Below are positions 1,448 through 35,272 of a DNA stretch of 64,000 nucleotides, in pieces; positions within the stretch are counted from its first letter, which is position 1, and every line of letters starts with the position of its first letter. The position numbers and the translations under genes are program-made. The stretch covers positions 14,411 to 78,410 of the forward strand of contig JBBSOC010000002.1 of the NCBI GenBank assembly GCA_038260095.1, given 5' to 3'. This DNA comes from Mycobacteriales bacterium. Lineage in GTDB: Bacteria; Actinomycetota; Actinomycetes; Mycobacteriales; QHCE01. The notes below the pieces were generated by a model that was given only the letters and a program-made list of their open reading frames with translations, ran no database searches and had not been told where the DNA came from.

Positions 1448-1484
1448 CCGAAGGGTTGGGATGAACAAGCCACAGAGTCGAGGG

Positions 1485-2037: not shown

Positions 2038-2202
2038 GACTTTAACTCTACGCGCTCAGGCGGCGGAAATTTCATCGTTGCCACCATTAGGCAAACAATC
2101 ACGAGTAACAGCATCCACCTTCTACCCGATTACCTGTCGCATGTCGCCGACATTCGTGCCGAGCAGTGGGTCTGACCAAATACTCTAGAAAGGAGGTAAC
2201 GG

Positions 2203-2424: not shown

Positions 2425-2476
2425 TTAAGTCGAAGATCGAGCCTCAGCCAGGCAAGCTCGGAACGTAAGGCCATGC

Positions 2477-3087: not shown

Positions 3088-3204
3088 AGCTTCTACTGTA
3101 CGTGCCGCTCTATGCCGTGTCACCAGAACTGCAGACAATGCCATGCGAGCGCCGCCGGATCAGTCTGTTTGGGGCCGAAGGTGACTGCATTTTTCGGTCA
3201 AAGA

Positions 3205-3280
3205 TGGAGCCGCCTGTCGGAATCGAACCGACGACCTGCTCATTACGAATGAGCTGCTCTGCCGACTGAGCTAAGGCGGC
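3205..3280 (-). tRNA. tRNA-Thr (anticodon CGU), CCA encoded
   Basis: The reverse complement is gccgccttagctcagtcggcagagcagctcattcgtaatgagcaggtcgtcggttcgattccgacaggcggctcca. The acceptor stem is GCCGCCT/AGGCGGC, the anticodon loop is ttCGTaa, and the T-arm is GGTTCGATTCC. Confidence 0.9.
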
Positions 3281-3345
3281 GGGGATGATGCTGGTGCGCA
3301 GATGAGTGTAGCGCGCTACACCGCCGCCGGCGGATTGCCGGTCAA

Positions 3346-13896: not shown

Positions 13897-13908
13897 CGTG
13901 GGTCCACC

Positions 13909-14280
13909 CTACTGTGTAGAGCTCGGCCGACCTGCGTCGCCGAGTGCAACGTCGATGGCGTCTTCTACCGAGGAAGCGATGGTGAACACTCGTTCCAAAC
14001 CGGTGATACGAAAAATTTTCACAATGCGCTCTTGCGTACAGACCAGCGCGAGGCTGCCGTTAGCGGCCTTCACCCGTTTGAGCGTGCCTACCAACACGCC
14101 AAGCCCGGTTGAATCTAGAAAATCCACATCTCGCATGTCCACTACCAGATGACGGTCCCCCGCATCCACAAGATCGACCAGCTTGACTCGAAGCTGCGGC
14201 GCGGTGTAGACATCGATCTCTCCCGCCACCGATACCACCGTATGGTCGTCAACCGAACGTGTGGTGATCGTGAGTTCCAT
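13909..14280 (-). CDS. STAS-domain anti-sigma-factor antagonist (RsfB/SpoIIAA-like)
   Basis: 123 aa, including [20 protein letters not shown] and [18 protein letters not shown] (the conserved DSTG phospho-serine region). Confidence 0.8.
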
Positions 14281-14464
14281 TAAGATCCTCCATACGGTAG
14301 TAGTGCGATAGCAAGTGGCACCACATAGCGTGTAACTACGTTGCCCATTGTTGCCGATCTAACCACTAGTGTCGTGCATTGTGAGCTGGCGCCGCACCGG
14401 ACATGCAGCTAGTGCGACTTAAGTGCGCCATCGACAACGCTATTCACGCGGTCTCTTACTCGGT

Positions 14465-14574
14465 GTGCACGATAAAAATTTTTGCACAAGTTCTCTTAAC
14501 TTGGCAAAACACGCTGCCACTGACCTGGTTGCTTCATCGACGATGGGTGATGGCCGTAGCTTGCAATCGTGCAC
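14465..14574. repeat. structured intergenic repeat with terminal inverted repeats, copy A (MITE/REP/MIRU-like)
   Basis: The ends are gtgcacgat (14465-14473) and atcgtgcac (14566-14574). The block 14465-14509 is the exact reverse complement of 38880-38924 (45 nt). Weaker homology extends to about 14453-14589. Confidence 0.8.
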
Positions 14575-14611
14575 CATGTCGTTAGCCCAAGGCGTGAGTA
14601 GCGAACGGCTG

Positions 14612-14971
14612 TCAGTCTTCCACCGGTCCAGCTCTGGCTGTTGCTACCGATGAGCGCGGCAGCTTTAATCGCAGGTTTGTTGCGGCAACCTGCACTGAAA
14701 CGACAGCGTCGAGACCGTCCAGGCGACAACTGAGTAGCGTTGCATGATTGGCCAGGGCTACACTGCGAGCAGCTCGACAGGCCCGGCCCTGATCAACCAA
14801 ACTGCGTTGAGCGGCGGCAACCGCAGCTAAGTCCGCGACGTTGCTCGCCCGATGGACTGCGAGCATATAGGAACCAGCGGTAGCAATCGTCGCGGCGATC
14901 AACACGATAGCTGTACCCAGCGCCATGACCATTACCGATGCGCTGCCAGCGTCACGCCCTCGGCTACTCAT
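14612..14971 (-). CDS. Rv3654c-type TadE-like pilus protein
   Basis: 119 aa with an N-terminal hydrophobic segment (GSASVMVMALGTAIVLIAATIA). It is the last gene of the Tad-like operon and overlaps the upstream gene by 4 nt. Confidence 0.6.
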   Translation of the reverse strand: MSSRGRDAGSASVMVMALGTAIVLIAATIATAGSYMLAVHRASNVADLAAVAAAQRSLVDQGRACRAARSVALANHATLLSCRLDGLDAVVSVQVAATNLRLKLPRSSVATARAGPVED

Positions 14972-15360
14972 GGCGGTGCCTTGTCTTCTTTGCTTTGTTC
15001 ACCCTCTTCAGCCGCTGCGACGCAGACCGCTGAAATCTGTACCGCAGGTAACGCGGCGCCCCCAAGTCGCATATGCGCCTGAACCGTAGCCCGCACCATC
15101 CCTGCCTCAGTGACAACCGCAAGCTGCGCTGCCTGGGGCATGTTCGCCATAGCAGGGCGTTCTCCTCGAGCCACCGCGCGTGCCGCCAAGCATGCCGCAT
15201 GCTCACTGCGAAGCTGGGTAGTGACGGCGCCCACAGCGCCTAGGGCAATCGTGAGCATCAGCACCAGCGCTGGCATCGTGGCAGCCAGCTCCGCGGTCAC
15301 CATCCCCGAGTCACGGCTATTATGCCGTTCCCGGGAATTCGTCTCACCAGTCGGCGTCAC
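14968..15360 (-). CDS. TadE-like minor pilin
   Basis: 130 aa with a GMVTAELAATMPALVLML prepilin-like segment. Its GTG overlaps the stop of the flp-like gene (GTGA). Confidence 0.6.
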   Translation of the reverse strand: MTPTGETNSRERHNSRDSGMVTAELAATMPALVLMLTIALGAVGAVTTQLRSEHAACLAARAVARGERPAMANMPQAAQLAVVTEAGMVRATVQAHMRLGGAALPAVQISAVCVAAAEEGEQSKEDKAPP

Positions 15361-15530
15361 TTCAACGCTCGCGTCACGATGGCAGTGAGCGCTTGCTGCA
15401 CGGTGGGACTTGTCAACACTTTGAGCAGAATCCCGGCAAACGCCACCGCTGCCACGATGCCAACGGCATACTCGGCAGTCGTCATTCCTGTCTCACCGTG
15501 CCGACGCAGCCATCGTCGAATATTCTCCAT
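15357..15530 (-). CDS. Flp-type pilin (DUF4244-like); absent from the ORF track because it is under 60 aa
   Basis: The minus-strand ATG at 15530 gives MENIRRWLRRHGETGMTTAEYAVGIVAAVAFAGILLKVLTSPTVQQALTAIVTRALK* (57 aa). It contains the G/xxxxEY Flp processing motif. Confidence 0.7.
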   Translation of the reverse strand: MENIRRWLRRHGETGMTTAEYAVGIVAAVAFAGILLKVLTSPTVQQALTAIVTRALK

Positions 15531-15588
15531 TACTGTCTCCTAATCTTTAGTTGTGTTATCTATTGGGTTGCCCAGACCAAACTGCGCC

Positions 15589-17262
15589 TCATATAGCCGT
15601 TTTTAGGGCTTGTTGCAGCACACTGACCACTACGGGAACGACGCCCAGCAGCACAAAGGACGGCAGAAAGCAGCACATCAACGGCGCGACCATGAGCACA
15701 CCGCGGCGCTGTGCGGCTGCTTCCTGTGCGGCCTGCGTTGACTCGCGAAGTTGGGCAGCCATGCGTACGAGGCTGTCGGCTAGTGCGGCTCCACTGTGAC
15801 CGCTGCGGGCAAGCGCCCGTAGGAGCGGCGCGGCGTCAGGGGCTTCACAGATGCCGCGCCGCCATGCGGCTGGGATAGGCTCACCAAGTGCCGCGGCAGC
15901 ACCTACAGCTCGCAGGCTTGCGCCTAGGCGGCCGCTCAACGCTGTGCCCACCTGGCATAGCGCCTGTGAGGTAGGGGAACCGGACCGCAGTGCGGCTGAC
16001 AGCAGCACTAGGGCGTAGGGAAGCTGCTCCAGCCAGCCTGGGTCAGGTCGGCGGGCCTGCCTCCTACGCAGCCAGGCCATACTCGCAACTGAACCCAGTG
16101 CTACCCCCACTCCGATCGGTAAAGCCCATACAGCACGTCCGATAAACCAGGCAGCCGCCACGCCCGCGAGTGCCCCCACAAACCACCGGACAGCGGGTCC
16201 CGTGGTCCCAGTGCTGGTGCTTTCGGAGTCGGCAGCGAAAGGATCGCAGCCATTGCTATCCACTTTCAGCACCGCTGCCAAACCCCGTAACCGTTGTCTG
16301 CTCACACATCTGTCACGACGCCACGTGAGTGCTGACAGCACACCGCGAACCGCTGAAATCATCCGCGGCGTTCCCGCATCGGCAGCAGCGATCCGGTCTG
16401 CCCAGATCCATCCAGCGCAGTGCAACACCACCGCTGTTAGCGCACAACACGCTCCCAAGAAGCTGTGCAGCAGCACTGCGGCCGGGTCCGCGCCCATGGT
16501 GCAACCGACCGCTATTCCTAGCGCGGGCAACAATGACAGCACCATGACCGTGGCGCGAGCACTCGCCGTGTGTACTGCCGCCGCCTGCTCGCGTCGGCGC
16601 TGCGCTGCTAGCTCGTCGTCTAGGCCGTCGAGCACACCTGCAAGTGCCGAGCCGGATTCTTGGAGCTTCCAAGCGGCGGCAAGGCGATCGCACCACGCTG
16701 CCTGTGGCACAGGGACCGCGCGCAGCGCAGCCACCACTCCTACCCCGTCCCCACTAGCGGCGTTTCGTACCTGTTGCCATGCCACAAGCATGCGCAGTAC
16801 CGCGGCACATAGAGTGCAGGCGGTGTCTGACTGCGCGCAGCTAGGGTGGCGTGAACGCAGGCCCGCGCAGACCATGTCGGTTGCTGCTACTAGCGCTAGA
16901 TGCGGAGACTGGCCAGCGCGGATTTCGTCGGCAATCGTCATGCATGCTTCAGAGCACAGCGATAAGGAGATGCGGCGCAACGCACGCCAGCGACGCGCAC
17001 GTAGCGCTCGCCGCAGCAACCAGAAATAACAACAGCTCGCCACAGCCAGAACTGGACCGCTCACTACGTATGCGGCGCCGACCATACCGAGATAGCCCGG
17101 CAGGCACCACCCATGCCACCATCGCCTGAGCCTGACAAACCTAAGCCTCCGCAGCTGAGCTGTGTCACCGTCGGCGTACTTGTCCGGCGCGGACTGAGTC
17201 GCAGCCAGCAGCCGTAAACGCGTCCGCGAGCTCAACCGACTAGACGTCAAAGCGGCGATCAT
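15589..17262 (-). CDS. TadB-TadC (two T2SS-F-like modules) in one continuous reading frame
   Basis: 557-aa ORF with no in-frame stop. The N-terminal half resembles TadB (ADEIRAGQSP..., LAGVLDGLDDELAAQRR). The C-terminal half resembles TadC (SAALRSGSPTSQAL..., LADSLVRMAAQLRE). Confidence 0.6.
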   Translation of the reverse strand: MIAALTSSRLSSRTRLRLLAATQSAPDKYADGDTAQLRRLRFVRLRRWWHGWCLPGYLGMVGAAYVVSGPVLAVASCCYFWLLRRALRARRWRALRRISLSLCSEACMTIADEIRAGQSPHLALVAATDMVCAGLRSRHPSCAQSDTACTLCAAVLRMLVAWQQVRNAASGDGVGVVAALRAVPVPQAAWCDRLAAAWKLQESGSALAGVLDGLDDELAAQRRREQAAAVHTASARATVMVLSLLPALGIAVGCTMGADPAAVLLHSFLGACCALTAVVLHCAGWIWADRIAAADAGTPRMISAVRGVLSALTWRRDRCVSRQRLRGLAAVLKVDSNGCDPFAADSESTSTGTTGPAVRWFVGALAGVAAAWFIGRAVWALPIGVGVALGSVASMAWLRRRQARRPDPGWLEQLPYALVLLSAALRSGSPTSQALCQVGTALSGRLGASLRAVGAAAALGEPIPAAWRRGICEAPDAAPLLRALARSGHSGAALADSLVRMAAQLRESTQAAQEAAAQRRGVLMVAPLMCCFLPSFVLLGVVPVVVSVLQQALKTAI

Positions 17263-18416
17263 CGCGGTTCCATTTCAACAGCGATGAAATCTTCCAGAGC
17301 CTGGATTCCTGGCGCTGGACGCCCATCTCTGGCCCAAGCAGTGACGGCCCGCACTGTGCCAACGGAGTCCACGCACAACAGCGCGATCTCCTCCAGCACA
17401 CGCAACCGACCGCGACGTCCCATATGCAAAATGCATGGCAGGGATGCGGCAAGCTGAGAATGCACCGCATGTCGATCTAGGCCGCCTAGCGAGCCGAGGG
17501 CCTCTAGCCGTGCGGGCACATCGGCGGGACTATTAGCATGCATAGTTCCCGCACAGCCCGAGTGCCCGGTGTTTAGTGCGCACAGCAACTCAACCACTTC
17601 CGCGCCCCGGCATTCGCCAACTACTATGCGATCAGGGCGCATCCGCAATGCTTGCCGCACTAGCTCACGCAACGAGACCGTCCCCGCACCGTCAGTGTTA
17701 TGCCCGCGGGATTGCAGCGACACCACGTGTGGGTGATGACATCGCAGCTCTTGAGAGTCTTCAACGACTACTACTCGTTCACATGTGGGCAGCTCACTAA
17801 GCAGGCTCGCCAGGAATGTCGTCTTTCCCGATGTCGTGCCACCCGTGACGAGAAATGCGCGCTTGGCGACAAGCAGCGCGCGCAGGATGCTCGCTGCACG
17901 AGACGGCAGGGCTCCCTGCTCCACGAGCTCAGCGAGGGAGAACACCCGTGGACGGAATGTGCGCAGCGACACGCAAACGCCGTTGACCGCAATCGGCGCG
18001 ATGACAACATGTAGTCGCGTGCCATCTGGCAGGCGCGCATCTACCCAAGGCTTGGCCGCGTCAAGCCGCTGCCCGCAGGCCACAGCCAACCGCTGGGCCA
18101 TGCACTGCAGCTGAGCCTCGCTTTGTTGCGGCAACACAACGCGTTGCAGCCCACCCCCACGATCAACCCAGGTACTTTGCGTGCCATTTATCAATACATC
18201 CGTGACATCGACGTCATCGAGCAGTGCATTGAGGGCCGCTAAACCAATCAGTTCGGTGCGCAGCGCCCGTGTCAGGTGATGCACCACCAAGTCGTTACCC
18301 GCGGTGTCACCGCAGATGGCGCGAGCGGCCGCGGTCACCCGATCATGTGTCAGCGGGGCGCCGGCATCAGTAAGCCAGCGACGCACCTGGGTTGCGAGAC
18401 TGAGTTGCCCGGTCAC
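17259..18416 (-). CDS. TadA/CpaF-family secretion ATPase
   Basis: 385 aa with Walker A (VTGGTTSGKTTFL), Walker B (VVVVEDSQE) and a His box region (NTGHSGCAGTMHAN). Confidence 0.85.
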   Translation of the reverse strand: MTGQLSLATQVRRWLTDAGAPLTHDRVTAAARAICGDTAGNDLVVHHLTRALRTELIGLAALNALLDDVDVTDVLINGTQSTWVDRGGGLQRVVLPQQSEAQLQCMAQRLAVACGQRLDAAKPWVDARLPDGTRLHVVIAPIAVNGVCVSLRTFRPRVFSLAELVEQGALPSRAASILRALLVAKRAFLVTGGTTSGKTTFLASLLSELPTCERVVVVEDSQELRCHHPHVVSLQSRGHNTDGAGTVSLRELVRQALRMRPDRIVVGECRGAEVVELLCALNTGHSGCAGTMHANSPADVPARLEALGSLGGLDRHAVHSQLAASLPCILHMGRRGRLRVLEEIALLCVDSVGTVRAVTAWARDGRPAPGIQALEDFIAVEMEPR

Positions 18417-19600
18417 TGGCAGATCCCACTCGGCCCGCTGAGTAACTGCTCGAGCAGCGCTCTGCTGAGCGCGCTGAGCGCACCCCTTTTCCCGCTACCC
18501 GGAGCGACACCCTTTTCTACCGCCGCCGCCAAGGAAGGTTCCCATTGCATTGTTCCCAGTAGCGGTAGCTGTAGTGCCGCAGCCACCTCGGCTGAATTGA
18601 TACCAGCTGGAGCGGGTGTACGCACCACTATTCGCAGTTGCTCGCAATGTGGGCGAATCACCGAAATTACCCGGCTGGCTGCCGCTACGGCACGAACCTC
18701 TGCTGGGACGACAAGAACGACAACGTCAGTAGCGTCCAGCGCTGCCTTGGCTGCCTCATCCGGAGCACGAGGCAGGTCCACGACTACCAGGTCACTACCG
18801 CGTCTGGCAATGTCGAGTAGCTGGCGGAGAGTGCGCGGAGCAATAGCAAGCTGCTCACCTCGATCCCATGAGAGCAGGGACAACTCACCTACTCGAGGTA
18901 GCGTGTCTATGACTTCGCCACTCACCCCGCCGGTGGGAGTAGTGGATAGATCGGGCCAGCGCGCCCCCGCATAGCTTTCTCGTCCCAGTAAGAGATCCAG
19001 TCCGCCACCCAGCGGGTCTGCGTCTACCAGCATGGTTCGGCGCCCAGAGTGGGCTGCGGTGACCGCTAAAGCACTGGCCAGGACGCTTGCACCCGCGCCA
19101 CCACGGCCGCCTACCACTCCGACCACCACACCGGCCGGCCCGTGCGTCGCGCTGGCTAAACGCTCGCCTAGCCACGATGCGCCGGCTGGTAACTCGACTA
19201 CGTGGTCAACGTCGAGCTCGGCGGCAAGCTGCCAGGTCGTCTCACCAGGCGGCGCTGAGCCGCGGGTAAGACTTGAAGCTGCGCTCAGCAGCACAACTCG
19301 GCCACGCCTCGGCGGGTGCATCCGGACGCACTGCGCTCCAGCTGCTTCATCTAGTACCACGAGTGACGCTTTTGACCACGCCCGCAGGGCGCCTGCCGCA
19401 TCCGGGGCGAGCTCAGGTTCAACGCCCACGGAAGCGGCAATATGCAGTAGTTGGTCCAGTAGCACCGGGTCTGTTATCAAAAACAGCGGGCGCGGTGATG
19501 TTTCGAGCACGAAAACCTCTCCAGTGGTATCAGGGGCAAGCTCACCCTGACGCCGTGGAAACGGGTTTAGTTGATGCAGCGCAGATATGTGCAGCCGCAC
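18413..19600 (-). CDS. ssd: Ssd/CpaE-like ParA-MinD family ATPase
   Basis: 395 aa with a deviant Walker A region (VVGGRGGAGASVLASALA). Its position upstream of tadA matches Rv3660c. Confidence 0.65.
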   Translation of the reverse strand: MRLHISALHQLNPFPRRQGELAPDTTGEVFVLETSPRPLFLITDPVLLDQLLHIAASVGVEPELAPDAAGALRAWSKASLVVLDEAAGAQCVRMHPPRRGRVVLLSAASSLTRGSAPPGETTWQLAAELDVDHVVELPAGASWLGERLASATHGPAGVVVGVVGGRGGAGASVLASALAVTAAHSGRRTMLVDADPLGGGLDLLLGRESYAGARWPDLSTTPTGGVSGEVIDTLPRVGELSLLSWDRGEQLAIAPRTLRQLLDIARRGSDLVVVDLPRAPDEAAKAALDATDVVVLVVPAEVRAVAAASRVISVIRPHCEQLRIVVRTPAPAGINSAEVAAALQLPLLGTMQWEPSLAAAVEKGVAPGSGKRGALSALSRALLEQLLSGPSGICQ

Positions 19601-19699
19601 TCAAGCTGTGGAAACTCGCTGCGGATTCGTTGCTAAGAGTACCGAAGTGGCCGATTGCGGCGGCTCATCCGGAATCGATACACAAAAATCAATCGGGAC

Positions 19700-19950
19700 A
19701 ATCTTCGTACGCCCTCTTGTCCTCGCCTGATTAGAGCGGTAGAACGTTAGATACGGAGATCTGATGGGCAGGTCAGCTGAACATCTGATCTCCGCGCATA
19801 GCCACCAGGAACCCACGCTCGGCCAGCCGCGGGAGGCATGTCGGAACGGAGCACCCAGGTGATCTGTTCTCGAGACGAAAAGGTGAGCGCTTGGTAACCT
19901 GATCTGGACTATGCATGACGGCGCCTCGCCAGAGGCGCCGTCTCTTTGTA
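19700..19950 (+). ncRNA. candidate small RNA (possibly Ms1/6S-like); the 5' end is unknown
   Basis: No ORF over 20 codons on the plus strand. A long hairpin has 8-bp outer arms, cggagatc and gatctccg (about 19753-19795). The segment ends at an orphan intrinsic terminator (19917-19950). It is divergent from ssd, as MTS2823 (ncRv13661) is in M. tuberculosis. Confidence 0.3.
19917..19950 (+). terminator. intrinsic terminator with no upstream plus-strand gene
   Basis: Perfect 11-bp GC-rich stem, gacggcgcctc (19917-19927) and gaggcgccgtc (19932-19942), with loop gcca and tail tctttgtat. The minus-strand tail is not U-rich. Confidence 0.6.
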
Positions 19951-20322
19951 TACACGGATCTTTGTCAACACTGGAGCCAAGCAATGTACTTAAATTCACC
20001 GCTGCGCCATGCAGCGATTAGAGGCCGCGCGGATAAGACCAGGCTCATGTCAGACGAAAATTAACGAAAGCGGAACCTTCTGCGCCGTCAAGCAGCTAGA
20101 CTGGTCCGGCTAACCTCTCAGGTGGATCGGCCGCACGTATTCGAGCTCGCTACATCCACTGGGCTTACCCGGTGTGCATGCTCAGCAGCAGGATGTAGGC
20201 AGCCTGCACCGAGAAAATCGTCACCAAGTCATATTTAACCCGAGCCTAGTCATCCTAGACCGTCACGATTCGAACGCATAAACCTTAATTATGCGCTGCC
20301 ACTAACGAAAGGACCTGGCGCG

Positions 20323-21009
20323 TTGAGTTCCCACGATGTTCCGTTTGGCGCCGAAACAGCCGTCCCGGAGTCGGCCCCTCCCTCCAATGCGCCACCAGTA
20401 GCTAAGGCCGTGATATCCCCACAGTTGCACGCTGGATCAATGCCAACGAACCCGCGCTTCAACGTCTCAGACGCACTCACTGTCGGCGGGGGGCTGATGG
20501 TGCTGCTATTTTCCTTCTTTCCTTTCGTCTCCTACAGTGATTCACTGCGGGGCCCCATTGAGCGCAGCGGGTACGACACGTGGTTTAACGCATGGCAGGC
20601 TCAAACGTTTATGGCGCCACTCACGTGGTTCGTCGTTCTAGGAGCCGTAACAGCCAGTGGGTTGAGTGCAGCTGGCTACCTGACAGGGCATCAGCTGAAG
20701 CTATTGCGTTTTTCAGCGCCACAGCTACAAGTGATGTGCTCGGCGTTCGCCTTTCTAGTATTGCTAGGGTATGCGACTTCATCTAGATCAGTAGTCTTTG
20801 GCAGTGATTACGCCCGCTATCTTGGAGACGCTACATTCGCGCATGGAATCAACTTCTCCGCCGGTGGGTACCTCATGCTTACCTTCGCGCTAGTAACGGT
20901 GGTGGGCGCGCTACTCACGCTTTACAACGTGGGTCCTGCCTTGTTACCGCGACCGAAGCTTACTGACGCCAAGCCCGTAGATACCCAGACACCAAGTCCG
21001 CTTGGCTAG
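20323..21009 (+). CDS. conserved polytopic membrane protein (position equivalent to Rv3669)
   Basis: 228 aa with a Pro-rich N-terminus followed by about 5 hydrophobic segments. The start is uncertain: TTG at 20323 or an internal ATG. Confidence 0.55.
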   Translation: MSSHDVPFGAETAVPESAPPSNAPPVAKAVISPQLHAGSMPTNPRFNVSDALTVGGGLMVLLFSFFPFVSYSDSLRGPIERSGYDTWFNAWQAQTFMAPLTWFVVLGAVTASGLSAAGYLTGHQLKLLRFSAPQLQVMCSAFAFLVLLGYATSSRSVVFGSDYARYLGDATFAHGINFSAGGYLMLTFALVTVVGALLTLYNVGPALLPRPKLTDAKPVDTQTPSPLG

Positions 21010-21150: not shown

Positions 21151-22071
21151 GTGAAAGCTCCAACCAATATCAAGGCGCTACTGGTACCGGGACCTTGGTC
21201 TCACCGCTTCATCAGTGCCAACGGTAACCGTTTCCACCTTGCTGAATGTGGGAGCGGGAAGCTAGTGCTGTTTCTGCATGGTTTCCCTGATTACTGGTGG
21301 ACTTGGCGAGAGCAGCTTCCAGTTTTCGCCGCAGCTGGATACCACGCAGTAGCCATGGACCTTCGGGGTTATGGGGCTTCAGACAAACCGCCCCGTGGGT
21401 ATGACGCCTACACCCTCGCAGCCGATGTGGCAGGCGTGATCCGAGCGTTAGGGCAGCGCGACGCAATACTCGTCGGGCACGACTGGGGTGGGCTACTGGG
21501 GTGGAGTGCGGCCGCGTTCCACCCACGTCTGGTCAGTAAGCTGGCCGTGATTGCGGCTGCCCATCCGCTACTGATACGTCGAGCGATGCTCGCCGACCAT
21601 AAGCAACGCAGCGCACTGGCCCACATGTTTGCGTTCCAGCTTCCGCGTTTTGAATATGTGCTCACTCGCAACAATGGTGCCTACGTCAACGCGCTGGTTC
21701 ACAGGTGGGCCGGACCCCAATGGCGCACGACGAGCGCATGCGCCGAACACGCCGCCGCGTGTGTAGTGGGCATGCGCACCAATCACGTGGCATTCTGCGC
21801 GCTGGAGTACTACCGTTGGGCGGTTCGTTCGTTGACTCGGCGGAGCGGGTGGCGGTATGCCGCTCTTATGAACCAGCACATTCCTCAGTCGGTACTGCAG
21901 TTACATGGCAACGTCGACAGCTGCATTCTGCCTAGCACAGTGGCGGGAGCAGCGCGATACGTTCGAAATGAATACAACTATCAAGAGCTAAGTGGAGTGG
22001 GGCATTTCCCTCACTTAGAGGACCCCAGCCGTACAAATCGGGCGCTGCTTTCCTGGGCTGCGACACCGTAG
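21151..22071 (+). CDS. alpha/beta hydrolase, epoxide-hydrolase-like (EphE position)
   Basis: 306 aa with FLHGFPDYWWTWR and the nucleophile elbow GHDWGG. It ends with the His region GHFPHLE. Confidence 0.75.
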   Translation: MKAPTNIKALLVPGPWSHRFISANGNRFHLAECGSGKLVLFLHGFPDYWWTWREQLPVFAAAGYHAVAMDLRGYGASDKPPRGYDAYTLAADVAGVIRALGQRDAILVGHDWGGLLGWSAAAFHPRLVSKLAVIAAAHPLLIRRAMLADHKQRSALAHMFAFQLPRFEYVLTRNNGAYVNALVHRWAGPQWRTTSACAEHAAACVVGMRTNHVAFCALEYYRWAVRSLTRRSGWRYAALMNQHIPQSVLQLHGNVDSCILPSTVAGAARYVRNEYNYQELSGVGHFPHLEDPSRTNRALLSWAATP

Positions 22072-22129: not shown

Positions 22130-23323
22130 CTAATCACAGCCTTGGGTACCCACCTCACGGGTAGCGCTGCGACCAGCATCAGCAACTGGCGCTGCTTCGC
22201 GCATGCTCAGCGCATAACCGGTACTGGGATCGTCGACTGCCGCCGCGAAAATGACTCCGATAGCCGAGCCATCGGGTGAGAGCAGGGGGCCGCCCGAGTT
22301 CCCTGGCCGCACCGTGCTTCGGATCGAATAGATCTCTCGAGTTACCTGGTCACCGTAAATATCTGGGCCCCGTAGGTCGCGGTGCCCTCGAACCCGAGCA
22401 GCGACCACAGTGTATGGGTTATCGAGTGGGAAACCAATCACAATAGCGTCCGCGCCAGCAGCGACGAGACCATGCGAACTAATTGTCGGCGCAGTTAAAC
22501 CCGGCGCGTACAGCACGGCAAGGTCGCGGTGCGGGTCGTAGCTCACCACACGGGCCGAATAGCGCCTACCCAGCAGCTCAACCCGAACGCTATCGGTACC
22601 GGCGACTACGTGAGCGTTGGTGAGGATGTGGTTAGGCGCGTAAACGAAACCCGTGCCCGAGAGCTGACGATCGCAGCTAGGCGCCTGGCCAACCACTTTC
22701 ACCACTGAACGACGCGCCTGCCGTGCTACCGCGGACTGCGCCAATGCCGGATCTGGTGAGGCAATGGGCGGAACGTCGCTGGGGGCGAGCCCGTCGAAAA
22801 TCTCGGGGAAATCTTGTTGGCGCACGGCGTCGCTGAACGAGCTGTAGGCCTTGCGCAGACCGTCGGGCATAGCCGAGTCGACAACCGACAGCACCCTTGA
22901 GTTGCGAATTTGAGCTGCCAGCCACGGTTCGGGTACGGAGGCCAGCGGCGCGGCAAGCATCCACGCCACAAGCAACATGGTGAGCGCCGACACCACCGAA
23001 CCGCCAGAGCTGTCCAGCGTTTGCAGCTGGGGGTGTTTGAGTCGTTCTCGGATTCGTGAACCAAGTGCCAGCGCTAAGCTCTGTCCGACCACCGCAATAC
23101 CGAAAGCCACCAGTAGTGCCACAAAAAGCCGCGTCGACGATGTCGCGAATCGATTAGCGACAATAGGCGCAAGCTGTAGACCTACCAACGCGCCTCCGAG
23201 GAATCCGATGAAGGAAAGCGCGCCGACGACAAAACCTTGCCGGTACCCCATCACGCCGAATGCCACCGCGGCAGCCAACAGCATGATGTCCATCAAGTCA
23301 AAGCTAAACAAGTCGCCGTTCAT
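22130..23323 (-). CDS. marP: MarP-type membrane serine protease (CvpA membrane domain plus trypsin-like domain)
   Basis: 397 aa with 4 N-terminal TM segments. The C-terminal protease domain has TNAHVVAG (His) and PGNSGGPLL (Ser). Confidence 0.85.
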   Translation of the reverse strand: MNGDLFSFDLMDIMLLAAAVAFGVMGYRQGFVVGALSFIGFLGGALVGLQLAPIVANRFATSSTRLFVALLVAFGIAVVGQSLALALGSRIRERLKHPQLQTLDSSGGSVVSALTMLLVAWMLAAPLASVPEPWLAAQIRNSRVLSVVDSAMPDGLRKAYSSFSDAVRQQDFPEIFDGLAPSDVPPIASPDPALAQSAVARQARRSVVKVVGQAPSCDRQLSGTGFVYAPNHILTNAHVVAGTDSVRVELLGRRYSARVVSYDPHRDLAVLYAPGLTAPTISSHGLVAAGADAIVIGFPLDNPYTVVAARVRGHRDLRGPDIYGDQVTREIYSIRSTVRPGNSGGPLLSPDGSAIGVIFAAAVDDPSTGYALSMREAAPVADAGRSATREVGTQGCD

Positions 23324-23328: not shown

Positions 23329-23922
23329 CTATCGTTCCCTATCCATGGTGACGTCAAGATAGCGCCCGATGGCTTCGCGCAGACTGGTTTCGGTGAAAAT
23401 CGGACCGGAGTACACCTTGCGCAACCCTCCTGCTCTGTCGACGAATAACGTCACTGGTAGTGCGCTTACACCAAGCGCACGACGAAGCTGCCCGGAGTGG
23501 TCATACAGGTTCGGAAAGCCCATGCCCAGCTCTGCGGCTGATTCTCGGGCACGGGTGGCGGAATCTTCGGTCACCACGCCCATCACCTGTAGTGAGCCAG
23601 CCGCACTTGCGTTAACGTTCACGAACGCTGGAAGCTCCTTGCCGCAGGGGGGGCACCACGAGCCCCATAAATTAAGCACCATTGGTTTGCCGATGCTTGA
23701 GCGCAACGCAAAGCGACGCCCACTACCGTCCATGCACGGCAGCGATAGCTTCGGTAGCGGATTAGGTTCGGTGGAGATTGATGTGGTCGACGTGGTGGGG
23801 CAGGCGGCAAAGCCTGTCAGAGACTGCCGTGCGGCTTCTGGTCGGTCAGCCTCGGCGGTGCAACCGGCTACCAAGGCTAGCGTTATCGCGACAGCCAAGA
23901 CGGCCGCGCGAAAATGACTCAC
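23329..23922 (-). CDS. TlpA/ResA-like thioredoxin-fold lipoprotein
   Basis: 197 aa with a signal peptide and lipobox (LALVAGC) and the redox motif [11 protein letters not shown]. Confidence 0.8.
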
Positions 23923-24725
23923 CGCGTTACGGCTTTCTGAGCTCGCCCTACAACGGGGTTGCCCGCAACGTCGTCGAGTTCAGCCAATACAGCGAGCTCA
24001 GCGACCCGATTTCCTCGAAGTAGCGCCCGTGCCTCCAAGGGATCGGTGGGACCCGTTCCGTAGGAGGGGCAGTACCGCGCCAGCGCGCAAGCGCCGCAAG
24101 CCGGCTTACGCGCATGACAGATCCGACGGCCGTGAAAGATCGCACGGTGTGAAAAAAGCGTCCATTCCGACTCCGGTAGCAACGCTCCGACGGCGTGCTC
24201 AATCTTGACTGGATCGTCATGGCGGGTCCAGCGCCATCGACGTACCAATCGGGACACGTGAGTATCAACCGTGATGCCGGGCGTGTCAAACGCGTTACCC
24301 AAAACGACGTTAGCTGTCTTGCGGCCCACTCCAGGTAGTTGCACCAGCTCAGCCATGGTGCGCGGCAACTCACCATGGTGGCGCTCAACAAGCGCCTGGC
24401 CAAGCCCGATCAGCGAGCTGGCCTTGTTGCGAAAGAACCCAGTTGAACGGATCAGCTCCTCTAATTCCGCGCGCGCAGCGCTGGCATATGCCAGCGCATC
24501 CGGATAGCGGGCAAACAAGGTTGGAGTGACCGCGTTGACCCGAACGTCTGTACATTGCGCTGAAAGAATGGTCGCTACTGTCAGCTCCAGTGGAGTGGAG
24601 AACGCTAGTTCGCAGTGCGCATCAGGATGGAGGCGAGCAAGCTCTGCGTTTATGTCATGTGCCCGTTGGACCAGCGTTGGAGTAGGTCGCAAGCGGCGTG
24701 GGCCAGTTGCTCGCGCAGCAATCAC
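23919..24725 (-). CDS. nth: endonuclease III
   Basis: 268 aa with HhH-GPD ([14 protein letters not shown]) and a C-terminal 4Fe-4S Cys ligand set ([17 protein letters not shown]). Confidence 0.9.
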
Positions 24726-24909
24726 TCGATCAGTTTAGAGGGCCAGCTGTCGACATCACCGGGCCGCGTCGGGCGAAAGCGTACTGAGTAGCGGTAAGTT
24801 AACGCTGCATAAGAGAGACTGGCTGGCGTGGGCCATCAAAAGCACCCCTGGTCAGGGGCGCCAATTGGCGAAAGCTCTCAATCTTGGTGTTGACGAAAGG
24901 TGTTCAGTG

Positions 24910-28090: not shown

Positions 28091-28140
28091 CTGGGTCAAG
28101 GGTAAGCGAAATTGGGGGCTAAGTCCCGTGACTATACGGA

Positions 28141-28476
28141 CTATTCTGGAAGACTGCTGGGCGGGAGTAGCTCATGCTGAGCACGTGCAGTTGATAGCAG
28201 ATTCCACCATGATGTGACTTTAGGGCTTCGCCGCAGCAGGGAGCGCCTCTCGCGCTCAGTCATCCCACCCCACACGCCAAACTCGATTCGGTTGTCTAAC
28301 GCATCGGCTAAACACTCGCTGCGAACCGGACAGCCAAGGCAAACTGCCTTTGCGCGATTTTGTGCCGAGCCTTGAACAAACAACGCGTCTGGGTCAGATG
28401 AGCGACATGCTCCCTTCGATGCCCAGTCCACAATCATGCCCACGGATTCACCGTGCGTGGCACGTGTTTTGTACAT
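28141..28476 (-). CDS. whiB4: WhiB-family Fe-S transcription factor, WhiB4-like
   Basis: CRSSDPDALFV...CLGCPVRSECLADALDNRIEFGVWGGMTERERR shows the four Cys and the GVWGG turn. It is divergent from ponA2, as Rv3681c is from Rv3682. The start is uncertain (28476 or 28515). Confidence 0.8.
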   Translation of the reverse strand: MYKTRATHGESVGMIVDWASKGACRSSDPDALFVQGSAQNRAKAVCLGCPVRSECLADALDNRIEFGVWGGMTERERRSLLRRSPKVTSWWNLLSTARAQHELLPPSSLPE

Positions 28477-28850
28477 TAGGTCCCCCCCGTCCCAGCGCAA
28501 CCCGTAGATTTGCAACGGGAAGGCACTTCCAGGTCTCAGACGCTACAAAGAGGACATCCCAAACGGCAGCAGCCGATCGCACAGAACTTACCTAGCCGTC
28601 TGCGGAGATCGTCATCCGAACGGAGGAAGCGATGCAGCTCAGGGCATAAATGTGGCGCCGCACACAGCGGTACGCGTTTTGCACAGTTTCAGCGACTCGT
28701 TGGCCAATCTGCGCTCGGCCTGCTATCTCGACTGCGGACGTGCACAGTGAAGTTCAGCTACGATTGCGGCGTACAGTTTTCCGCAAAGGACTAGCTAGGA
28801 CCGACTCAACAGCCTGACGGCTAGAGATCAAAGCAGAGACGAGTGACCAC

Positions 28851-31373: not shown

Positions 31374-31374
31374 A

Positions 31375-32331
31375 ATGGCGATGAGGTCTCGTCGCGGCCG
31401 CGTCGCGCTGTGGTTGGCCGAAGGTCTAGTTGGTGTGGCCGCAGTGGGGACCGCGTATTACGCCACAGTGATTGAACCGCGGTCCTGGCTGCTGCGCAGA
31501 CTAGACGTACCGGTGCTGCCGCCAGACAGCGAACCGTTTCGGATCCTGCACATTTCTGATTTACACATGCTCGCGCGCCAGCACGGCAAGCAGGCATGGC
31601 TCCGAGGCCTAGCTGCACTGGATCCGGATCTAGTTGTGCTGACAGGCGATAATCTAGCGTCTGAAGACGCGGTGGATAGCGTGCTACACGCGCTGTCGCC
31701 GCTAGCTGAACGCCCTGGTGCATTTGTGTTAGGTAACAGCGATTATTACGGACCCGTCCCTAAAGGGCCATGGCAGTATTCTTCTACCGCCTCCACAAGC
31801 TCGGCTGCTTTAGGCGGCCGCGGGGGCACTCCTATGCCGACTCAGGAACTCTGTAAGGCGCTGAGGTCACTAGGTTGGTCGGAGCTAACAAACCAACGCA
31901 CCGTCATCGATGCGGGTGGCCGCCGAGTCGAACTATCCGGCGTAGACGATCCGAGCCTGGGGCGCGATGATTACGCCGCTGTGGCCGGCAGGATTGATGC
32001 TTCAGCTGATCTGCACATCGGGCTCACCCATTCGCCGGAACCGGATGTGGTGACGAGTTTTGTTGCAGACGGTTTCGAGTTAGTACTGGCCGGTCATACT
32101 CACGGTGGTCAGGTGCGAATTCCTGGTTATGGAGCCGTGGTCACCAGCTGCGGCATTGACCGTCAGAGGGCGCGCGGCTTGCATCGTTGGCGCGGGAACA
32201 GTTTCCTACACGTAAGTGCCGGCATTGGAACCTCACCGTATGCGCCCGTTCGATTTGGCTGCCCTCCCGAGGCGGTCATGCTGACCTTGGTGTCGGCTGC
32301 CTCGATCGTTACTAAAACGGCCCTGCAGTAG
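31375..32331 (+). CDS. metallophosphoesterase (Rv3683-like)
   Basis: Motifs ILHISDLHM, LTGDN, LGNSDYY and AGHTHGGQ follow an N-terminal TM segment. The track ORF start at 31207 overlaps ponA2 and is unlikely; the ATG at 31375 follows the ponA2 TGA directly. Confidence 0.8.
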   Translation: MAMRSRRGRVALWLAEGLVGVAAVGTAYYATVIEPRSWLLRRLDVPVLPPDSEPFRILHISDLHMLARQHGKQAWLRGLAALDPDLVVLTGDNLASEDAVDSVLHALSPLAERPGAFVLGNSDYYGPVPKGPWQYSSTASTSSAALGGRGGTPMPTQELCKALRSLGWSELTNQRTVIDAGGRRVELSGVDDPSLGRDDYAAVAGRIDASADLHIGLTHSPEPDVVTSFVADGFELVLAGHTHGGQVRIPGYGAVVTSCGIDRQRARGLHRWRGNSFLHVSAGIGTSPYAPVRFGCPPEAVMLTLVSAASIVTKTALQ

Positions 32332-32475
32332 CCCCGGTTAGTTTCACCCAGCAGTTGCATCTGGGGGCCGGACTCATGGGCTAGACTCAGCGGTACTGGC
32401 AGGCAGTTGTATTGTCGGCAACACGCGCAGCGTGAGGGACGTCGAGTCCCGAACAAAGTGTGCATAACTCAACAA

Positions 32476-32549
<74 letters not shown>

Positions 32550-32554
32550 CACTG

Positions 32555-32600
32555 TGATGTCTCGGGACATGGTTCATTGATGTGTCGGGTCATGGTTCAT
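32555..32600. repeat. tandem 23-bp duplication immediately 3' of tRNA-Pro
   Basis: tgatgtctcgggacatggttcat (32555-32577) and tgatgtgtcgggtcatggttcat (32578-32600) are identical at 21/23 positions. The first unit contains the short inverted repeat atgtc..gacat. Confidence 0.7.
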
Positions 32601-32611
32601 AGCTTCCTGCG

Positions 32612-34204: not shown

Positions 34205-34730
34205 TAGTCAATAGCCTTGTGCCGCATACACAGTGTTTGACCTGATTTTCAGTGGGAAGCCGACCTCTCCCTCATGCTGCGGCAAGAGCGGCTCGTGGTC
34301 GTCCCAACGTTGCGCACACCACTGCTGGTGGCACCGCACACCATTGGTAATGGAACCAATGCGCCCTCCTGACGACCTTCCCAGGAGCTACTCCTGTCAA
34401 GGGGATGCCAAAAGAGCCCAGCACGCAAGATCATACCTGCTCATCAGGCCCTACTCCGGCAACTTTCAGGTACTGGCACAGAACTATTATCCCGAACTTT
34501 GAAATCGGAAGGATGAGGTAGACGAGTGCCGTGGTGACCCTCTGTCGAACAGGCCGCAAGAATGTAGAGCGTAAGCGAGTCCCTGACCTGAAGGGAAATG
34601 GCCCGTCTTTAAGCACTGATGGCAGCTGAGTATAGAGAATGGGATGTCACGGTCACAACCTACGCCGCGCCTGTGGGGCAGCTGATCCTCCGCAAGAACA
34701 AATCGACGTGAAGGATGAGAGAATAGATTC

Positions 34731-35272
34731 ATGTATTCAGAATTAGAGTCGGGGAGGATTTTGCGAGGCGCTTTCTCAGAGGCGGATTTCGATGATCCGG
34801 TTTCTTATTTTGGTCGCACAGGTGACGTCTTCCACGCTCTTAGCTTTGCATGGCTTTTTGGCCTAAGCTTGTAGAGTTACAGGGAGCGGTGTTCTTCGCA
34901 CTGGATGGAAATGATGAGCAGGAGATCCGCAAGCGCTTATACACACCATTCGGTGATGCTCATCCTGAGTGGCCCGCTATGACTTGGCAGAATGCGGTAA
35001 ACAGTTACAATAGATTCGAAGTTTCGCAGCTATTTTATGTTTGGCGTGAGCCGAGTGATCTGGTTTCTAGCGCATCGAAAGAACTGAGTCATTTTTTGGT
35101 TCAAACGTGGCAAGCTCGGCTACGTCGAGAATATCCCGACCTTGAGGTGCCGGACGGCTGGAACGAACAACGTCGATGTAGCCGGGATGGCTCGTCGGCC
35201 TCGATCATGACCATGCGGCGCCAAACCATCGACGCCCTCACTAATCGGTTGGGCAAGATCACCACAAGTTGA
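34731..35272 (+). pseudogene. hypothetical protein, possibly frameshifted near its 5' end
   Basis: ATG 34731 opens MYSELESGRILRGAFSEADFDDPVSYFGRTGDVFHALSFAWLF, which stops at 34872. The track ORF (34850-35272) continues as (M)AFWPKLVELQGAVFF... in another frame. One extra T in the T5 run 34855-34859 would join them (AWLFWPKLVE). No homologue was recognised. Confidence 0.35.

What the first reader, a model, noticed from the sequence alone, without database searches (positions are those of the whole stretch)
19601..20322. 720-bp gene-free gap next to ssd contains an orphan intrinsic terminator, suggesting an Ms1/6S-like sRNA
The gap is unusually long for this compact window and has no credible ORF on either strand. 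On the plus strand a textbook terminator (perfect 11-bp GC stem 19917-19942, then UCUUUGUAU) has no upstream plus-strand gene to terminate. The only neighbour is ssd, which is divergent. Upstream lies a long hairpin (cggagatc...gatctccg, about 19753-19795). In M. tuberculosis the abundant 6S-like RNA MTS2823 (ncRv13661; Ms1 in M. smegmatis) is encoded just past ssd (Rv3660c) and Rv3661, on the strand opposite ssd. Here no Rv3661 homologue is present and the gap directly follows ssd.
Basis: partly seen in the sequence, partly recalled or inferred. Interest (0 to 1): 0.6.

Follow-up and report, generated by a model that had tools for sequence, protein, structure and literature searches.

The report
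Short Ms1 RNA gene beside ssd

Summary
The region 19601-20322 has no credible ORF, and an 11-bp terminator (19917-19942 plus a U-tract) and a long hairpin (19754-19794) lie on the + strand. Together they form one RNA gene, about 19753-19950 (+).

Evidence that it is an Ms1 homologue:
- A covariance model built only from Streptomycetaceae Ms1 cores, including the RACE-validated S. coelicolor scr3559, finds one match in the 64-kb window: 19793-19947 (+), 35.7 bits, E 4e-6, full length.
- The reciprocal model, built without Streptomyces sequences, finds the Streptomycetaceae Ms1 loci full length.
- The founding M. smegmatis Ms1 has the same ACGG 5' end, the same conserved blocks and the same closing helices.
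- 89 metagenomic relatives support the fold: 24 of 43 pairs show compensatory changes, and 92.7% of cells are paired against 33-47% in slid controls.
- The window copy keeps 39 of 43 pairs. It also has the family promoter (TTGTCC, 17 nt, TAGAAC) ahead of A19753.

Differences from typical Ms1 loci:
- The HAD hydrolase gene that usually precedes Ms1, and the 6C RNA upstream of ssd, are both missing.
- At about 198 nt the RNA is short, against 227-228 and 304 nt for the two validated Ms1 RNAs.

Rfam finds nothing here, but it also misses a Streptomyces Ms1 orthologue. Binding to RNA polymerase core and expression are inferred, not shown.

The parts
19717..19722 (+). -35-like hexamer TTGTCC of the predicted Ms1 promoter
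   Evidence: It lies 17 nt upstream of the -10-like box. The family consensus at this position is TTnnCA (T 81/84, T 61/84, C 63/84, A 55/84). The same layout precedes the position aligned to the RACE-mapped S. coelicolor 5' end in Streptomycetaceae loci. This is inferred, not mapped.
19740..19745 (+). -10-like box TAGAAC
   Evidence: 80 of 84 family members have TAGAAA, TACAAA or TAGAAC at the equivalent place, and nine others have exactly TAGAAC. Streptomycetaceae loci have TACAAA or TAGAAA 6 nt before the position aligned to the mapped S. coelicolor +1.
19753..19950 (+). Predicted Ms1 RNA, about 198 nt, from predicted +1 (A19753 of ACGG) to the end of the terminator U-tract
   Evidence: Streptomycetaceae-only model R1: 19793-19947, 35.7 bits, E 4e-6, the only hit in the window. 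HMM built without the window sequence: E 4.6e-15. Family model R2: 108.5 bits. Fold: -101.2 kcal/mol, z -5.97. The 5' ACGG matches the first bases of M. smegmatis Ms1 (ACGGAAGC) and S. coelicolor Ms1 (AACGGCC).
19754..19794 (+). 5' hairpin (P1): CGGAGAUC/GAUCUCCG plus GAUG/CAUC and an apical stem
   Evidence: Present in the minimum-free-energy fold. In 61 of 64 distinct family members the segment from predicted +1 to the core folds so that the 5' CGG pairs with its 3' end. Segment length is 16-22 nt in most members and 44 nt here.
19796..19809 (+). 5' strands of the closing helices (GCAUAGCCA, CAGG)
   Evidence: They pair with 19898-19914. Helices 1 and 2 of the family structure have compensatory changes at 4 of 5 and 3 of 6 pairs. 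The same helices appear in the folds of M. smegmatis and S. coelicolor Ms1.
19810..19837 (+). Conserved core block 1: AACCCACGCUCGGCCAGCCGCGGGAGGC
   Evidence: Nearly invariant across 84 distinct metagenomic and genomic members. ACCCACGCG is shared with S. coelicolor and M. smegmatis Ms1. GCCGCGG..AGGC corresponds to M. smegmatis GCCGCGGAAUAGGC, which lies in the segment removed in the Ms1nb mutant. That mutant binds RNA polymerase core much less well (PMC4191392).
19839..19876 (+). Central hairpin (GUC-GAACGG ... CUGUUC-GAC)
   Evidence: Present in the minimum-free-energy fold. In family helix 5 all 10 pairs show changes on both sides. The length varies widely among relatives, with insertions up to about 55 nt in the alignment shown and about 100 nt in M. 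smegmatis.
19881..19899 (+). Conserved core block 2: AGGUGAGCGCUUGGUAACC
   Evidence: GC(U/A/C)UGGUA is invariant or nearly so in the family. It is shared with S. coelicolor (ACGCUUGGUAACC) and M. smegmatis (GCACGCUUGGUCAC).
19898..19914 (+). 3' strands of the closing helices (CCUG ... UGG.CUAUGC)
19917..19950 (+). Intrinsic terminator: 11-bp stem, GCCA loop, then UCUUUGUA
   Evidence: Helix 6 of the family has 7 of 13 pairs with compensatory changes. It is aligned to the terminator hairpins of S. coelicolor and M. smegmatis Ms1.
19601..19752 (.). Divergent promoter region between the ssd start and the Ms1 +1. No 6C RNA and no HAD gene here.
   Evidence: Rfam search at E up to 10 on both strands finds no 6C, whereas relatives carry 6C upstream of ssd. 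This is the most diverged stretch relative to L001, including a 20-nt indel.
19951..20322 (+). Spacer between the Ms1 terminator and orf228. Not part of the RNA; presumably the promoter and 5' UTR of orf228.
   Evidence: No structure signal (z -0.21), no Rfam hit, and no similarity outside L001. A gap estimated and coordinates at about 380 nt separates Ms1 from the orf228 homologue in Cryptosporangium L002.

Best explanation
Window 19753-19950 (+) is an independent gene for a short (about 198 nt) member of the Ms1 family of actinobacterial small RNAs.

Gene layout (inferred). It is transcribed from its own promoter (TTGTCC, 17 nt, TAGAAC, 7 nt, then A19753). It ends at the intrinsic terminator 19917-19950. 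Transcription runs away from ssd.

Fold (supported by covariation in relatives). The RNA forms a 5' hairpin. Next comes a domain closed by two long-range helices, which bring the two nearly invariant blocks ACCCACGC..CCAGCCGCGGGAGGC and GCGCUUGGUAACC together around a variable central hairpin. The terminator hairpin follows.

Function (inferred by homology; nothing about function is shown for this organism). Like M. smegmatis Ms1, M. tuberculosis MTS2823 and S. coelicolor scr3559, it most likely accumulates when growth stops. It would then bind sigma-free RNA polymerase core through the conserved internal-loop region and hold a reserve of polymerase.

Local history (inferred). In this lineage the HAD hydrolase gene that normally precedes Ms1, and the 6C RNA upstream of ssd, have been lost. 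That leaves Ms1 directly beside ssd.
For: Shown by computation:
- Model R1, built from 26 Streptomycetaceae Ms1 cores including RACE-validated scr3559 and without the window or Cryptosporangium sequences, gives a single full-length hit in 64 kb at 19793-19947 (+): 35.7 bits, E 4e-6.
- An HMM from 14 relatives without the window sequence gives E 4.6e-15 at the same place.
- Model R2, seeded without Streptomyces sequences, hits 66 Streptomycetaceae loci full length (E 2e-8 to 6e-3). For nearly all of them the coordinates match the S. coelicolor Ms1 nhmmer hits.
- The gap sequence alone hits Cryptosporangium loci just downstream of their HAD gene (E 2e-8). The Ms1 survey lists Cryptosporangium among Ms1-bearing genera (PMC9130861).
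- M. smegmatis Ms1 (sequence) aligns colinearly to the family HMM over residues 65-291. Independent folds of the three RNAs share the closing helices and the CCA/UGG and GCG/CGC pairs.
- Covariation on 84 distinct sequences: 92.7% of cells paired against 33-47% in slid controls, 24 of 43 pairs with double changes, and 0 of 500 shuffles reaching the observed values.
- The window copy keeps 39 of 43 pairs and 49 of 53 highly conserved columns.
- The promoter boxes match the family consensus, including the layout in Streptomycetaceae loci upstream of the position aligned to the mapped S. coelicolor +1.
- Synteny: ssd lies on one side, and an orf228 homologue lies downstream as in Cryptosporangium.

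From the literature:
- Ms1 binds RNA polymerase core. Deleting the internal bubble lowers binding (PMC4191392).
- scr3559 binds core in S. coelicolor (PMC9130861).
- Ms1 takes more than 60% of RNA-polymerase-bound reads in stationary phase (PMC11077062).
Against: - There are no expression data. The transcription start is predicted only.
- Rfam gives no Ms1 hit. This is weak evidence, because a Streptomyces orthologue also gives none.
- Direct similarity to M. smegmatis Ms1 is weak by sequence alone (14.4 bits). S. coelicolor Ms1 as a single query does not hit the window. The link therefore rests on profiles and shared structure.
- The HAD gene, the most constant neighbour of Ms1 in the published survey, is absent.
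- The 100% identity to L001 over this stretch reflects a 1160-nt identical tract that also covers coding sequence, so it says nothing about selection on the RNA.
- The covariation alignment was fitted to the model.
Confidence: 0.88

Rival explanations
1. The element is a decaying relic of Ms1. The deletion that removed the HAD gene and 6C RNA also crippled Ms1 expression, and the sequence is no longer functional.
For: The region between ssd and the RNA has clearly been rearranged: the HAD gene and 6C RNA are absent. The -10 box is the minority variant TAGAAC. The -35 is TTGTCC rather than TTnnCA. The upstream inverted repeat seen in 59 of 81 relatives is only degenerate here.
Against: 39 of 43 consensus pairs and 49 of 53 highly conserved positions are kept, although the nearest RNA relatives outside L001 are only about 73% identical. 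The terminator is perfect. Nine other family members use TAGAAC. The fold is strongly stable (z -5.97). L079 and 37 metagenomic loci also carry Ms1 without a HAD gene, so HAD is not needed for its retention.
Confidence: 0.05
2. It is a cis-acting leader or attenuator of the downstream gene orf228 (20323-21009) rather than a free-standing RNA. The terminator would act as a regulated stop.
For: It is on the same strand as orf228 and upstream of it. Cryptosporangium also has an orf228 homologue downstream of its Ms1.
Against: A 372-nt unstructured spacer separates the two. Homologues in Streptomyces, M. smegmatis and the helicase-linked metagenomic clade are followed by unrelated genes. S. coelicolor Ms1 has RACE- and Term-seq-mapped ends as a discrete 228-nt RNA (PMC9130861). 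No riboswitch or leader family matches.
Confidence: 0.04
3. It is a canonical 6S RNA (SsrS) that binds the sigma-A holoenzyme, or an unrelated structured sRNA that only resembles Ms1 by chance.
For: Its length (about 200 nt) is in the 6S range, and it has a structured fold with internal loops.
Against: No 6S family matched at E up to 10. Specific, reciprocal, full-length matches to Ms1 models are found. The promoter, 5' end and conserved blocks are shared with Ms1. RIP-seq found no 6S RNA in mycobacteria or S. coelicolor, which carry Ms1 instead (PMC11077062).
Confidence: 0.02

Closest known systems
Ms1 of Streptomyces coelicolor (scr3559 / Str13), 227-228 nt, binds RNA polymerase core
   Same: - Full-length covariance-model match in both directions.
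- Same promoter layout (TTCCGC, 17 nt, TACAAA, 6 nt, then +1 AACGG).
- Same blocks GGnACCCACGCG, CCAGCCGC and ACGCUUGGUAACC.
- Same closing helices and terminator.
- Transcribed away from ssd.
   Different: - The window RNA is about 30 nt shorter.
- It lacks the small hairpin CCCGUCGAUUACGGG between ACCCACGCG and CCAGCCGC.
- It has a single long 5' hairpin.
- There is no HAD hydrolase gene (the SCO3558 homologue) upstream.
Ms1 of Mycobacterium smegmatis / MTS2823 (ncRv13661) of M. tuberculosis, about 300 nt
   Same: - The 5' end ACGG.
- The closing helices around GCACCCACGCG and GCACGCUUGGUCAC.
- The GCCGCGGAAUAGGC element, in the segment whose deletion (Ms1nb) lowers core binding.
- A terminator directly after the closing helix.
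- Location in the ssd-to-MarP chromosomal neighbourhood.
   Different: - The window RNA lacks about 100 nt of the central domain and has a shorter 5' domain.
- Sequence similarity is weak outside the blocks (14.4 bits).
- The Rfam search at E up to 10 returned no Ms1 match here.
- In mycobacteria Rv3661 (HAD) and the 6C RNA (B11) lie between ssd and Ms1. The position of 6C in mycobacteria is from my own knowledge; it was seen directly in other relatives.
Short-form Ms1 of Cryptosporangium and uncultured soil Actinomycetes
   Same: - Same core with ACCCACGnnCGnCCAGCCGCGGGAGGC directly contiguous.
- Similar core length, 148-172 nt between the 5' hairpin and the U-tract in the short-form seed sequences.
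- 108-145 bits with model R2.
- In Cryptosporangium an orf228 homologue lies downstream.
   Different: - Cryptosporangium keeps HAD and 6C.
- Most soil members have a 16-22 nt 5' hairpin against 44 nt here.
- The window RNA has lower G+C (63% against about 70%).
- Many soil members carry an upstream GATCACGAATTGATCAC repeat that is degenerate here.
6S RNA (SsrS)
   Same: A structured RNA of about 200 nt thought to sequester RNA polymerase in non-growing cells.
   Different: [quoted passage not shown] Ms1 binds sigma-free core. There is no sequence or model match to 6S here.

Membership tests
Ms1 RNA | Sequence and structure homology to an experimentally validated Ms1 | tested here: met
   R1 (Streptomycetaceae only, including scr3559) hits 19793-19947 at E 4e-6 and is the only hit in the window. 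The reciprocal model R2 hits the Streptomycetaceae Ms1 loci. There is a colinear alignment to M. smegmatis Ms1 and shared helices.
Ms1 RNA | Conserved secondary structure supported by covariation | tested here: met
   24 of 43 pairs have compensatory changes. 92.7% of cells are paired against 33-47% in slid controls. 0 of 500 shuffles reach the observed values. The window copy keeps 39 of 43 pairs. Caveat: the alignment was fitted to the model.
Ms1 RNA | Own transcription unit, with promoter and rho-independent terminator, about 200-300 nt | tested here: met
   An in-silico test only. The family promoter boxes lie at 19717-19722 and 19740-19745. The terminator is at 19917-19950. The predicted length of 198 nt is at the short end of the range.
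Ms1 RNA | Synteny: downstream of the HAD-IB hydrolase gene (Rv3661 / MSMEG_6173 / SCO3558), near ssd, on the strand opposite ssd | tested here: inconclusive
   The ssd neighbour and the opposite strand are met. The HAD gene is absent from the whole window. HAD is also absent next to Ms1 in L079 and in 37 metagenomic loci, so it is a frequent neighbour rather than a defining one.
Ms1 RNA | Match to the Rfam Ms1 model | tested here: not met
   No hit at gathering score or at E up to 10. In the control, a Streptomyces Ms1 orthologue region also gave no hit. The Ms1 survey notes that Rfam covers only close relatives of mycobacteria (PMC9130861). The test is therefore not diagnostic.
Ms1 RNA | Binds RNA polymerase core lacking the primary sigma factor | not testable with these tools
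   Needs co-immunoprecipitation or RIP-seq. Indirect support: the element matching the M. smegmatis bubble segment, whose deletion lowers binding, is invariant here.
Ms1 RNA | Strong accumulation in stationary phase | not testable with these tools
   No transcriptome data are available for this uncultured lineage.
6S RNA | Match to 6S covariance models; open-promoter-like central bubble | tested here: not met
   No 6S family matched at E up to 10 in 19400-20500.
6C RNA | Two hairpins with C-rich loops, upstream of ssd on the ssd strand | tested here: not met
   RF01066 is found in L002, L003, L004, L008, L013, L046 and L079. It is not found in the window or in L001 at gathering score, nor in the gap at E up to 10.

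The most novel reading that the evidence does not exclude
This RNA and its more than 100 metagenomic relatives may represent a near-minimal natural Ms1: a 5' hairpin, a closed core and a terminator.
- Its invariant core (ACCCACG..CCAGCCGCGGGAGGC paired across to GCGCUUGGUAACC) would pinpoint the surface that contacts RNA polymerase core.
- Its occurrence without the HAD gene (here and in L079), or without both HAD and ssd (the helicase-linked soil clade), would mean that synteny-based surveys undercount Ms1.
- A further unexcluded point: the nearest genome is labelled Acidimicrobiales. If that label were right, this would be Ms1 outside the class Actinomycetes.
Probability: 0.3. Interest if true: 0.4.

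Novelty: new member of a known kind. Interest (0 to 1): 0.3.

Why it matters
Ms1 is the actinobacterial counterpart of 6S RNA and the main RNA bound to RNA polymerase in stationary-phase mycobacteria.

- Finding an intact copy in an uncultured, probably Antarctic soil lineage extends the family's known range.
- It shows that the RNA is kept even where its usual HAD hydrolase neighbour and the 6C RNA are gone. This argues against an obligatory functional coupling between Ms1 and the HAD gene.
- The short form, together with the metagenomic alignment made here, gives a compact conserved core that could guide mutagenesis or structural work on the Ms1-polymerase complex.

For annotation of this window, it turns an "empty" 720-bp gap into a named RNA gene.

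Tried and rejected
- Rfam at gathering score and at E up to 10 gave nothing relevant. A control on a Streptomyces Ms1 locus showed that this negative result is uninformative.
- S. coelicolor Ms1 as a single nhmmer query did not reach the window. Profiles and covariance models were needed.
- I first read the 100% identity with the closest genome (L001) across the gap as strong conservation. I rejected that reading. The identical tract runs 1160 nt, into orf228 coding sequence. A second tract of about 1350 nt lies at 23466-24816, against a background divergence of 8.8%.
- RNAalifold on raw MAFFT alignments recovered only part of the structure. I therefore specified the helices by hand and let Infernal realign the sequences.
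- Protein-coding readings of the gap were rejected.
- A 6C RNA in the gap was looked for and not found.
- The spacer 19951-20322 was checked for structure and homology, with no signal.
- A literature search for a cryo-EM structure of Ms1 bound to polymerase found none in the library.
- I did not resolve the organism's taxonomy.

Full report
**1. The observation**

- The ORF at 18413-19600 (-) is Ssd (TIGR03815, 329 bits against a cut-off of 154).
- Upstream of it lies a TadA-type ATPase gene at 17259-18416 (-).
- On the other side are a 228-aa membrane-like ORF with no family match (20323-21009, +), an alpha/beta hydrolase gene (21151-22071, +) and MarP (22130-23323, -).
- As far as I know, this is the M. 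tuberculosis Rv3659c-Rv3671c neighbourhood with the middle removed. The Rv gene numbers are from my own knowledge; the protein families are tool results.
- The 722-bp gap is real.
- Its mechanical ORFs have no family hits. Their G+C by codon position is flat. The longest (132 aa, - strand) is truncated in the closest genome.
- The terminator at 19917-19942 has 11 pairs, 9 of them G-C, followed by TCTTTGTATA.
- No homologue of the Rv3661-type HAD hydrolase exists anywhere in the 64 kb.

**2. Relatives**

- One scan of species-representative genomes with Ssd returned a single close relative, L001. It is an Antarctic MAG with 93% amino-acid identity. The next best hits are Cryptosporangium at about 54%, followed by many Streptomycetaceae and several Actinomycetes MAGs.
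- In nearly all of these loci a HAD hydrolase gene lies divergent from ssd.
- In several of them Rfam finds a 6C RNA just upstream of ssd on the ssd strand.
- The window and L001 have neither the HAD gene nor the 6C RNA.
- The window and L001 are 91% identical overall, but 19729-20888 is 100% identical. That tract runs 565 nt into orf228 with no synonymous differences.
- A second tract of about 1350 nt at 23466-24816 behaves the same way, whereas the longest identical run expected by chance is about 80 nt.
- I read this as recombination or chimeric assembly, not as selection on the RNA. I did not use L001 as evidence of conservation.

**3. Identification**

- The gap sequence, used as a single nhmmer query against the 80 loci, hit three Cryptosporangium loci and two MAGs (best E 2e-8). 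All hits are on the strand opposite ssd. In the Cryptosporangium loci and L046 they lie 100-250 nt past the stop of the HAD gene.
- That is the place where Ms1 lies in mycobacteria and Streptomyces. The published Ms1 survey lists Cryptosporangium among Ms1-bearing genera (PMC9130861).
- A profile of these sequences then reached about 40 Streptomyces, Kitasatospora, Actinacidiphila and Jiangellales loci at the same relative position.
- The survey's supplement gives the RACE-verified S. coelicolor Ms1 (scr3559) sequence. With nhmmer it hits 65 Streptomycetaceae loci at coordinates that overlap the hits of my profile.
- As an independent test I built covariance model R1 from 26 Streptomycetaceae Ms1 cores only, with no window and no Cryptosporangium sequence. 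Over the whole window and both strands it gave one match: 19793-19947 (+), 35.7 bits, E 4e-6, model positions 1-163 of 163.
- An HMM built from 14 relatives without the window sequence gave E 4.6e-15 at the same place.

**4. The wider family and its structure**

None is closer than about 73% identity to the window RNA.
- Model R2 was seeded with 36 short-form sequences and a hand-specified structure. It found 89 members in the first 100 sources searched, with the window scoring 108.5 bits.
- R2 contains no Streptomyces sequence. It nevertheless hit 66 Streptomycetaceae Ms1 loci full length (E 2e-8 to 6e-3), which makes the relation reciprocal.
- Pair counts on the model-fitted alignment of 84 distinct sequences:
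  - 92.7% of cells form standard pairs, against 33-47% when the 3' partners are slid.
  - 24 of 43 pairs show changes on both sides.
  - The covariation score is 0.183, against 0.095 in shuffles (0 of 500 reach it) and 0.02-0.06 in slid controls.
- The central hairpin covaries at 10 of 10 pairs. The two closing helices covary at 7 of 11 pairs and the terminator at 7 of 13.
- The two short helices inside the conserved blocks never vary, so they are neither supported nor contradicted.
- The window copy forms 39 of 43 consensus pairs and keeps 49 of 53 columns that are at least 95% conserved.
- Its own fold is -101.2 kcal/mol, z -5.97. The reverse strand folds almost as well (z -5.70).
- Strand assignment therefore rests on the U-tract, the promoter and the model hits, all of which are on the + strand.

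**5. Link to the founding member**

- The supplement of the original Ms1 paper gives the 304-nt M. smegmatis Ms1 sequence and the Ms1nb mutant (PMC4191392).
- M. smegmatis Ms1 starts ACGGAAGC; the window RNA starts ACGGAGAUC.
- It has GCACGGAUACCGAGCACCCACGCG where the window has GCAUAGCCACCAGGAACCCACGCU.
- It has GCACGCUUGGUCACUCGGGGUCCGUGCUAGCGGGCGGCG where the window has GAGCGCUUGGUAACCUGAUCUGGACUAUGCAUGACGGCGCC.
- The family HMM aligns to M. smegmatis residues 65-291 colinearly, with a central insertion of about 100 nt (14.4 bits).
- Independent minimum-free-energy folds of the M. smegmatis, S. coelicolor and window RNAs share three features: the long-range closing helices immediately 5' of ACCCACG and 3' of GCUUGGU; the CCA/UGG and GCG/CGC pairs between the two blocks; and a terminator right after the closing helix.
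- The invariant window element CCAGCCGCGGGAGGC (19823-19837) corresponds to M. smegmatis GCCGCGGAAUAGGC. That element lies in the segment removed in Ms1nb, a mutant that binds RNA polymerase core much less well in vitro.
- This is the basis for my inference about which part of the RNA contacts the polymerase.

**6. Ends of the RNA**

- In 80 of 84 family members with upstream sequence, a box TAGAAA, TACAAA or TAGAAC sits 6-7 nt before an ACGG. A TTnnCA hexamer lies 17 nt further upstream.
- Streptomycetaceae loci show the same layout directly upstream of the position aligned to the RACE-mapped S. coelicolor +1.
- The window has TTGTCC (19717-19722), a 17-nt spacer, TAGAAC (19740-19745), 7 nt, and then A19753.
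- From predicted +1 to the core, 61 of 64 distinct members fold into a hairpin that pairs the 5' CGG.
- The predicted RNA is therefore about 19753-19950, or 198 nt, against 227-228 nt in S. coelicolor and 304 nt in M. smegmatis.

**7. What is unusual here**

- The HAD gene and the 6C RNA are absent, so Ms1 abuts ssd with only 152 nt between them.
- The downstream neighbour is conserved: an orf228 homologue follows Ms1 in Cryptosporangium.
- The HAD-less state is not unique. MAG L079 has ssd, 6C and then Ms1 with no HAD gene.
- In addition, 37 metagenomic Ms1 loci have neither a HAD gene nor ssd upstream. In five of five inspected, the upstream gene is a DEAD-box helicase with an MrfA zinc-binding domain.
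- The rest of the gap (19951-20322) shows no structure signal, no Rfam match and no homology outside L001. I take it to be the promoter and 5' UTR of orf228.

**8. Verdict**

- The element is an Ms1 family RNA gene. It is a new member of a known and widespread kind; 824 species were predicted to carry Ms1 in PMC9130861.
- It has a short architecture and a reduced synteny.
- Binding to RNA polymerase core and stationary-phase accumulation are inferred from homology and remain untested.
- Interest is modest. The result is useful for annotation and for defining a minimal conserved Ms1 core, but it would not surprise a specialist.

Noticed in passing
window 19729-20888 and 23466-24816 (against L001): There are two tracts of perfect or near-perfect identity (1160 nt; 1351 nt with one difference) between the window and the Antarctic MAG contig QHCE01000047.1. 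The background divergence is 8.8%, and the longest identical run expected by chance is about 80 nt. This suggests recent recombination between two populations or a chimeric metagenome assembly.
   Followed up: partly
L002 6740-6814, L003 6655-6729, L004 6682-6756, L008 6838-6915, L013 6744-6818, L046 6573-6647, L079 6756-6831 (all +, the ssd strand): A 6C RNA (RF01066) lies upstream of ssd in many relatives, ending about 90-350 nt before the Ssd match. It is absent from the window and from L001.
   Followed up: yes
upstream of Ms1 in loci L081-L179 and in Streptomycetaceae loci; window 19717-19745: The family-wide Ms1 promoter has a -10-like box TA(G/C)AA(A/C) whose last base is A or C rather than the usual T. 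It is conserved from Streptomyces to the soil clade. Which sigma factor reads it is unclear.
   Followed up: partly
about 45-46 nt upstream of the -10 box in 59 of 81 distinct short-form Ms1 loci (e.g. L104, L159, L195); window 19676-19695 carries only a degenerate copy: A conserved inverted repeat GAT(C/A)ACGAAT(T/C)G(A/G)T(C/T)AC sits at a fixed distance from the Ms1 promoter. It could be a binding site for a regulator.
   Followed up: no
L104, L106, L133, L134, L152, L159 and about 30 further metagenomic loci: Here Ms1 follows a DEAD-box helicase gene with an MrfA zinc-binding domain, and no HAD hydrolase or ssd gene is nearby. A synteny search keyed on the HAD gene would miss this context.
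   Followed up: partly
L013 5845-6743: This Antarctic Mycobacteriales MAG has a gap of about 900 nt between an acetyl-CoA synthetase gene and the 6C RNA upstream of ssd. It has no HAD gene and no Ms1 hit with model R2. The content of the gap is unknown.
   Followed up: no
L001 (record title): The closest genome is titled 'Acidimicrobiales bacterium'. However, the best Ssd matches are all from the class Actinomycetes, and the Ssd, MarP and Ms1 arrangement fits that class. The label may be wrong.
   Followed up: no
window 1448-3345, 13897-15588, 31374-32611, 34205-35268, 28091-28850: These other stretches lack any ORF of at least 150 aa and are longer than the gap studied here. At least two contain tRNA genes (3208-3280 and 32476-32549). 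The others were not examined.
   Followed up: no
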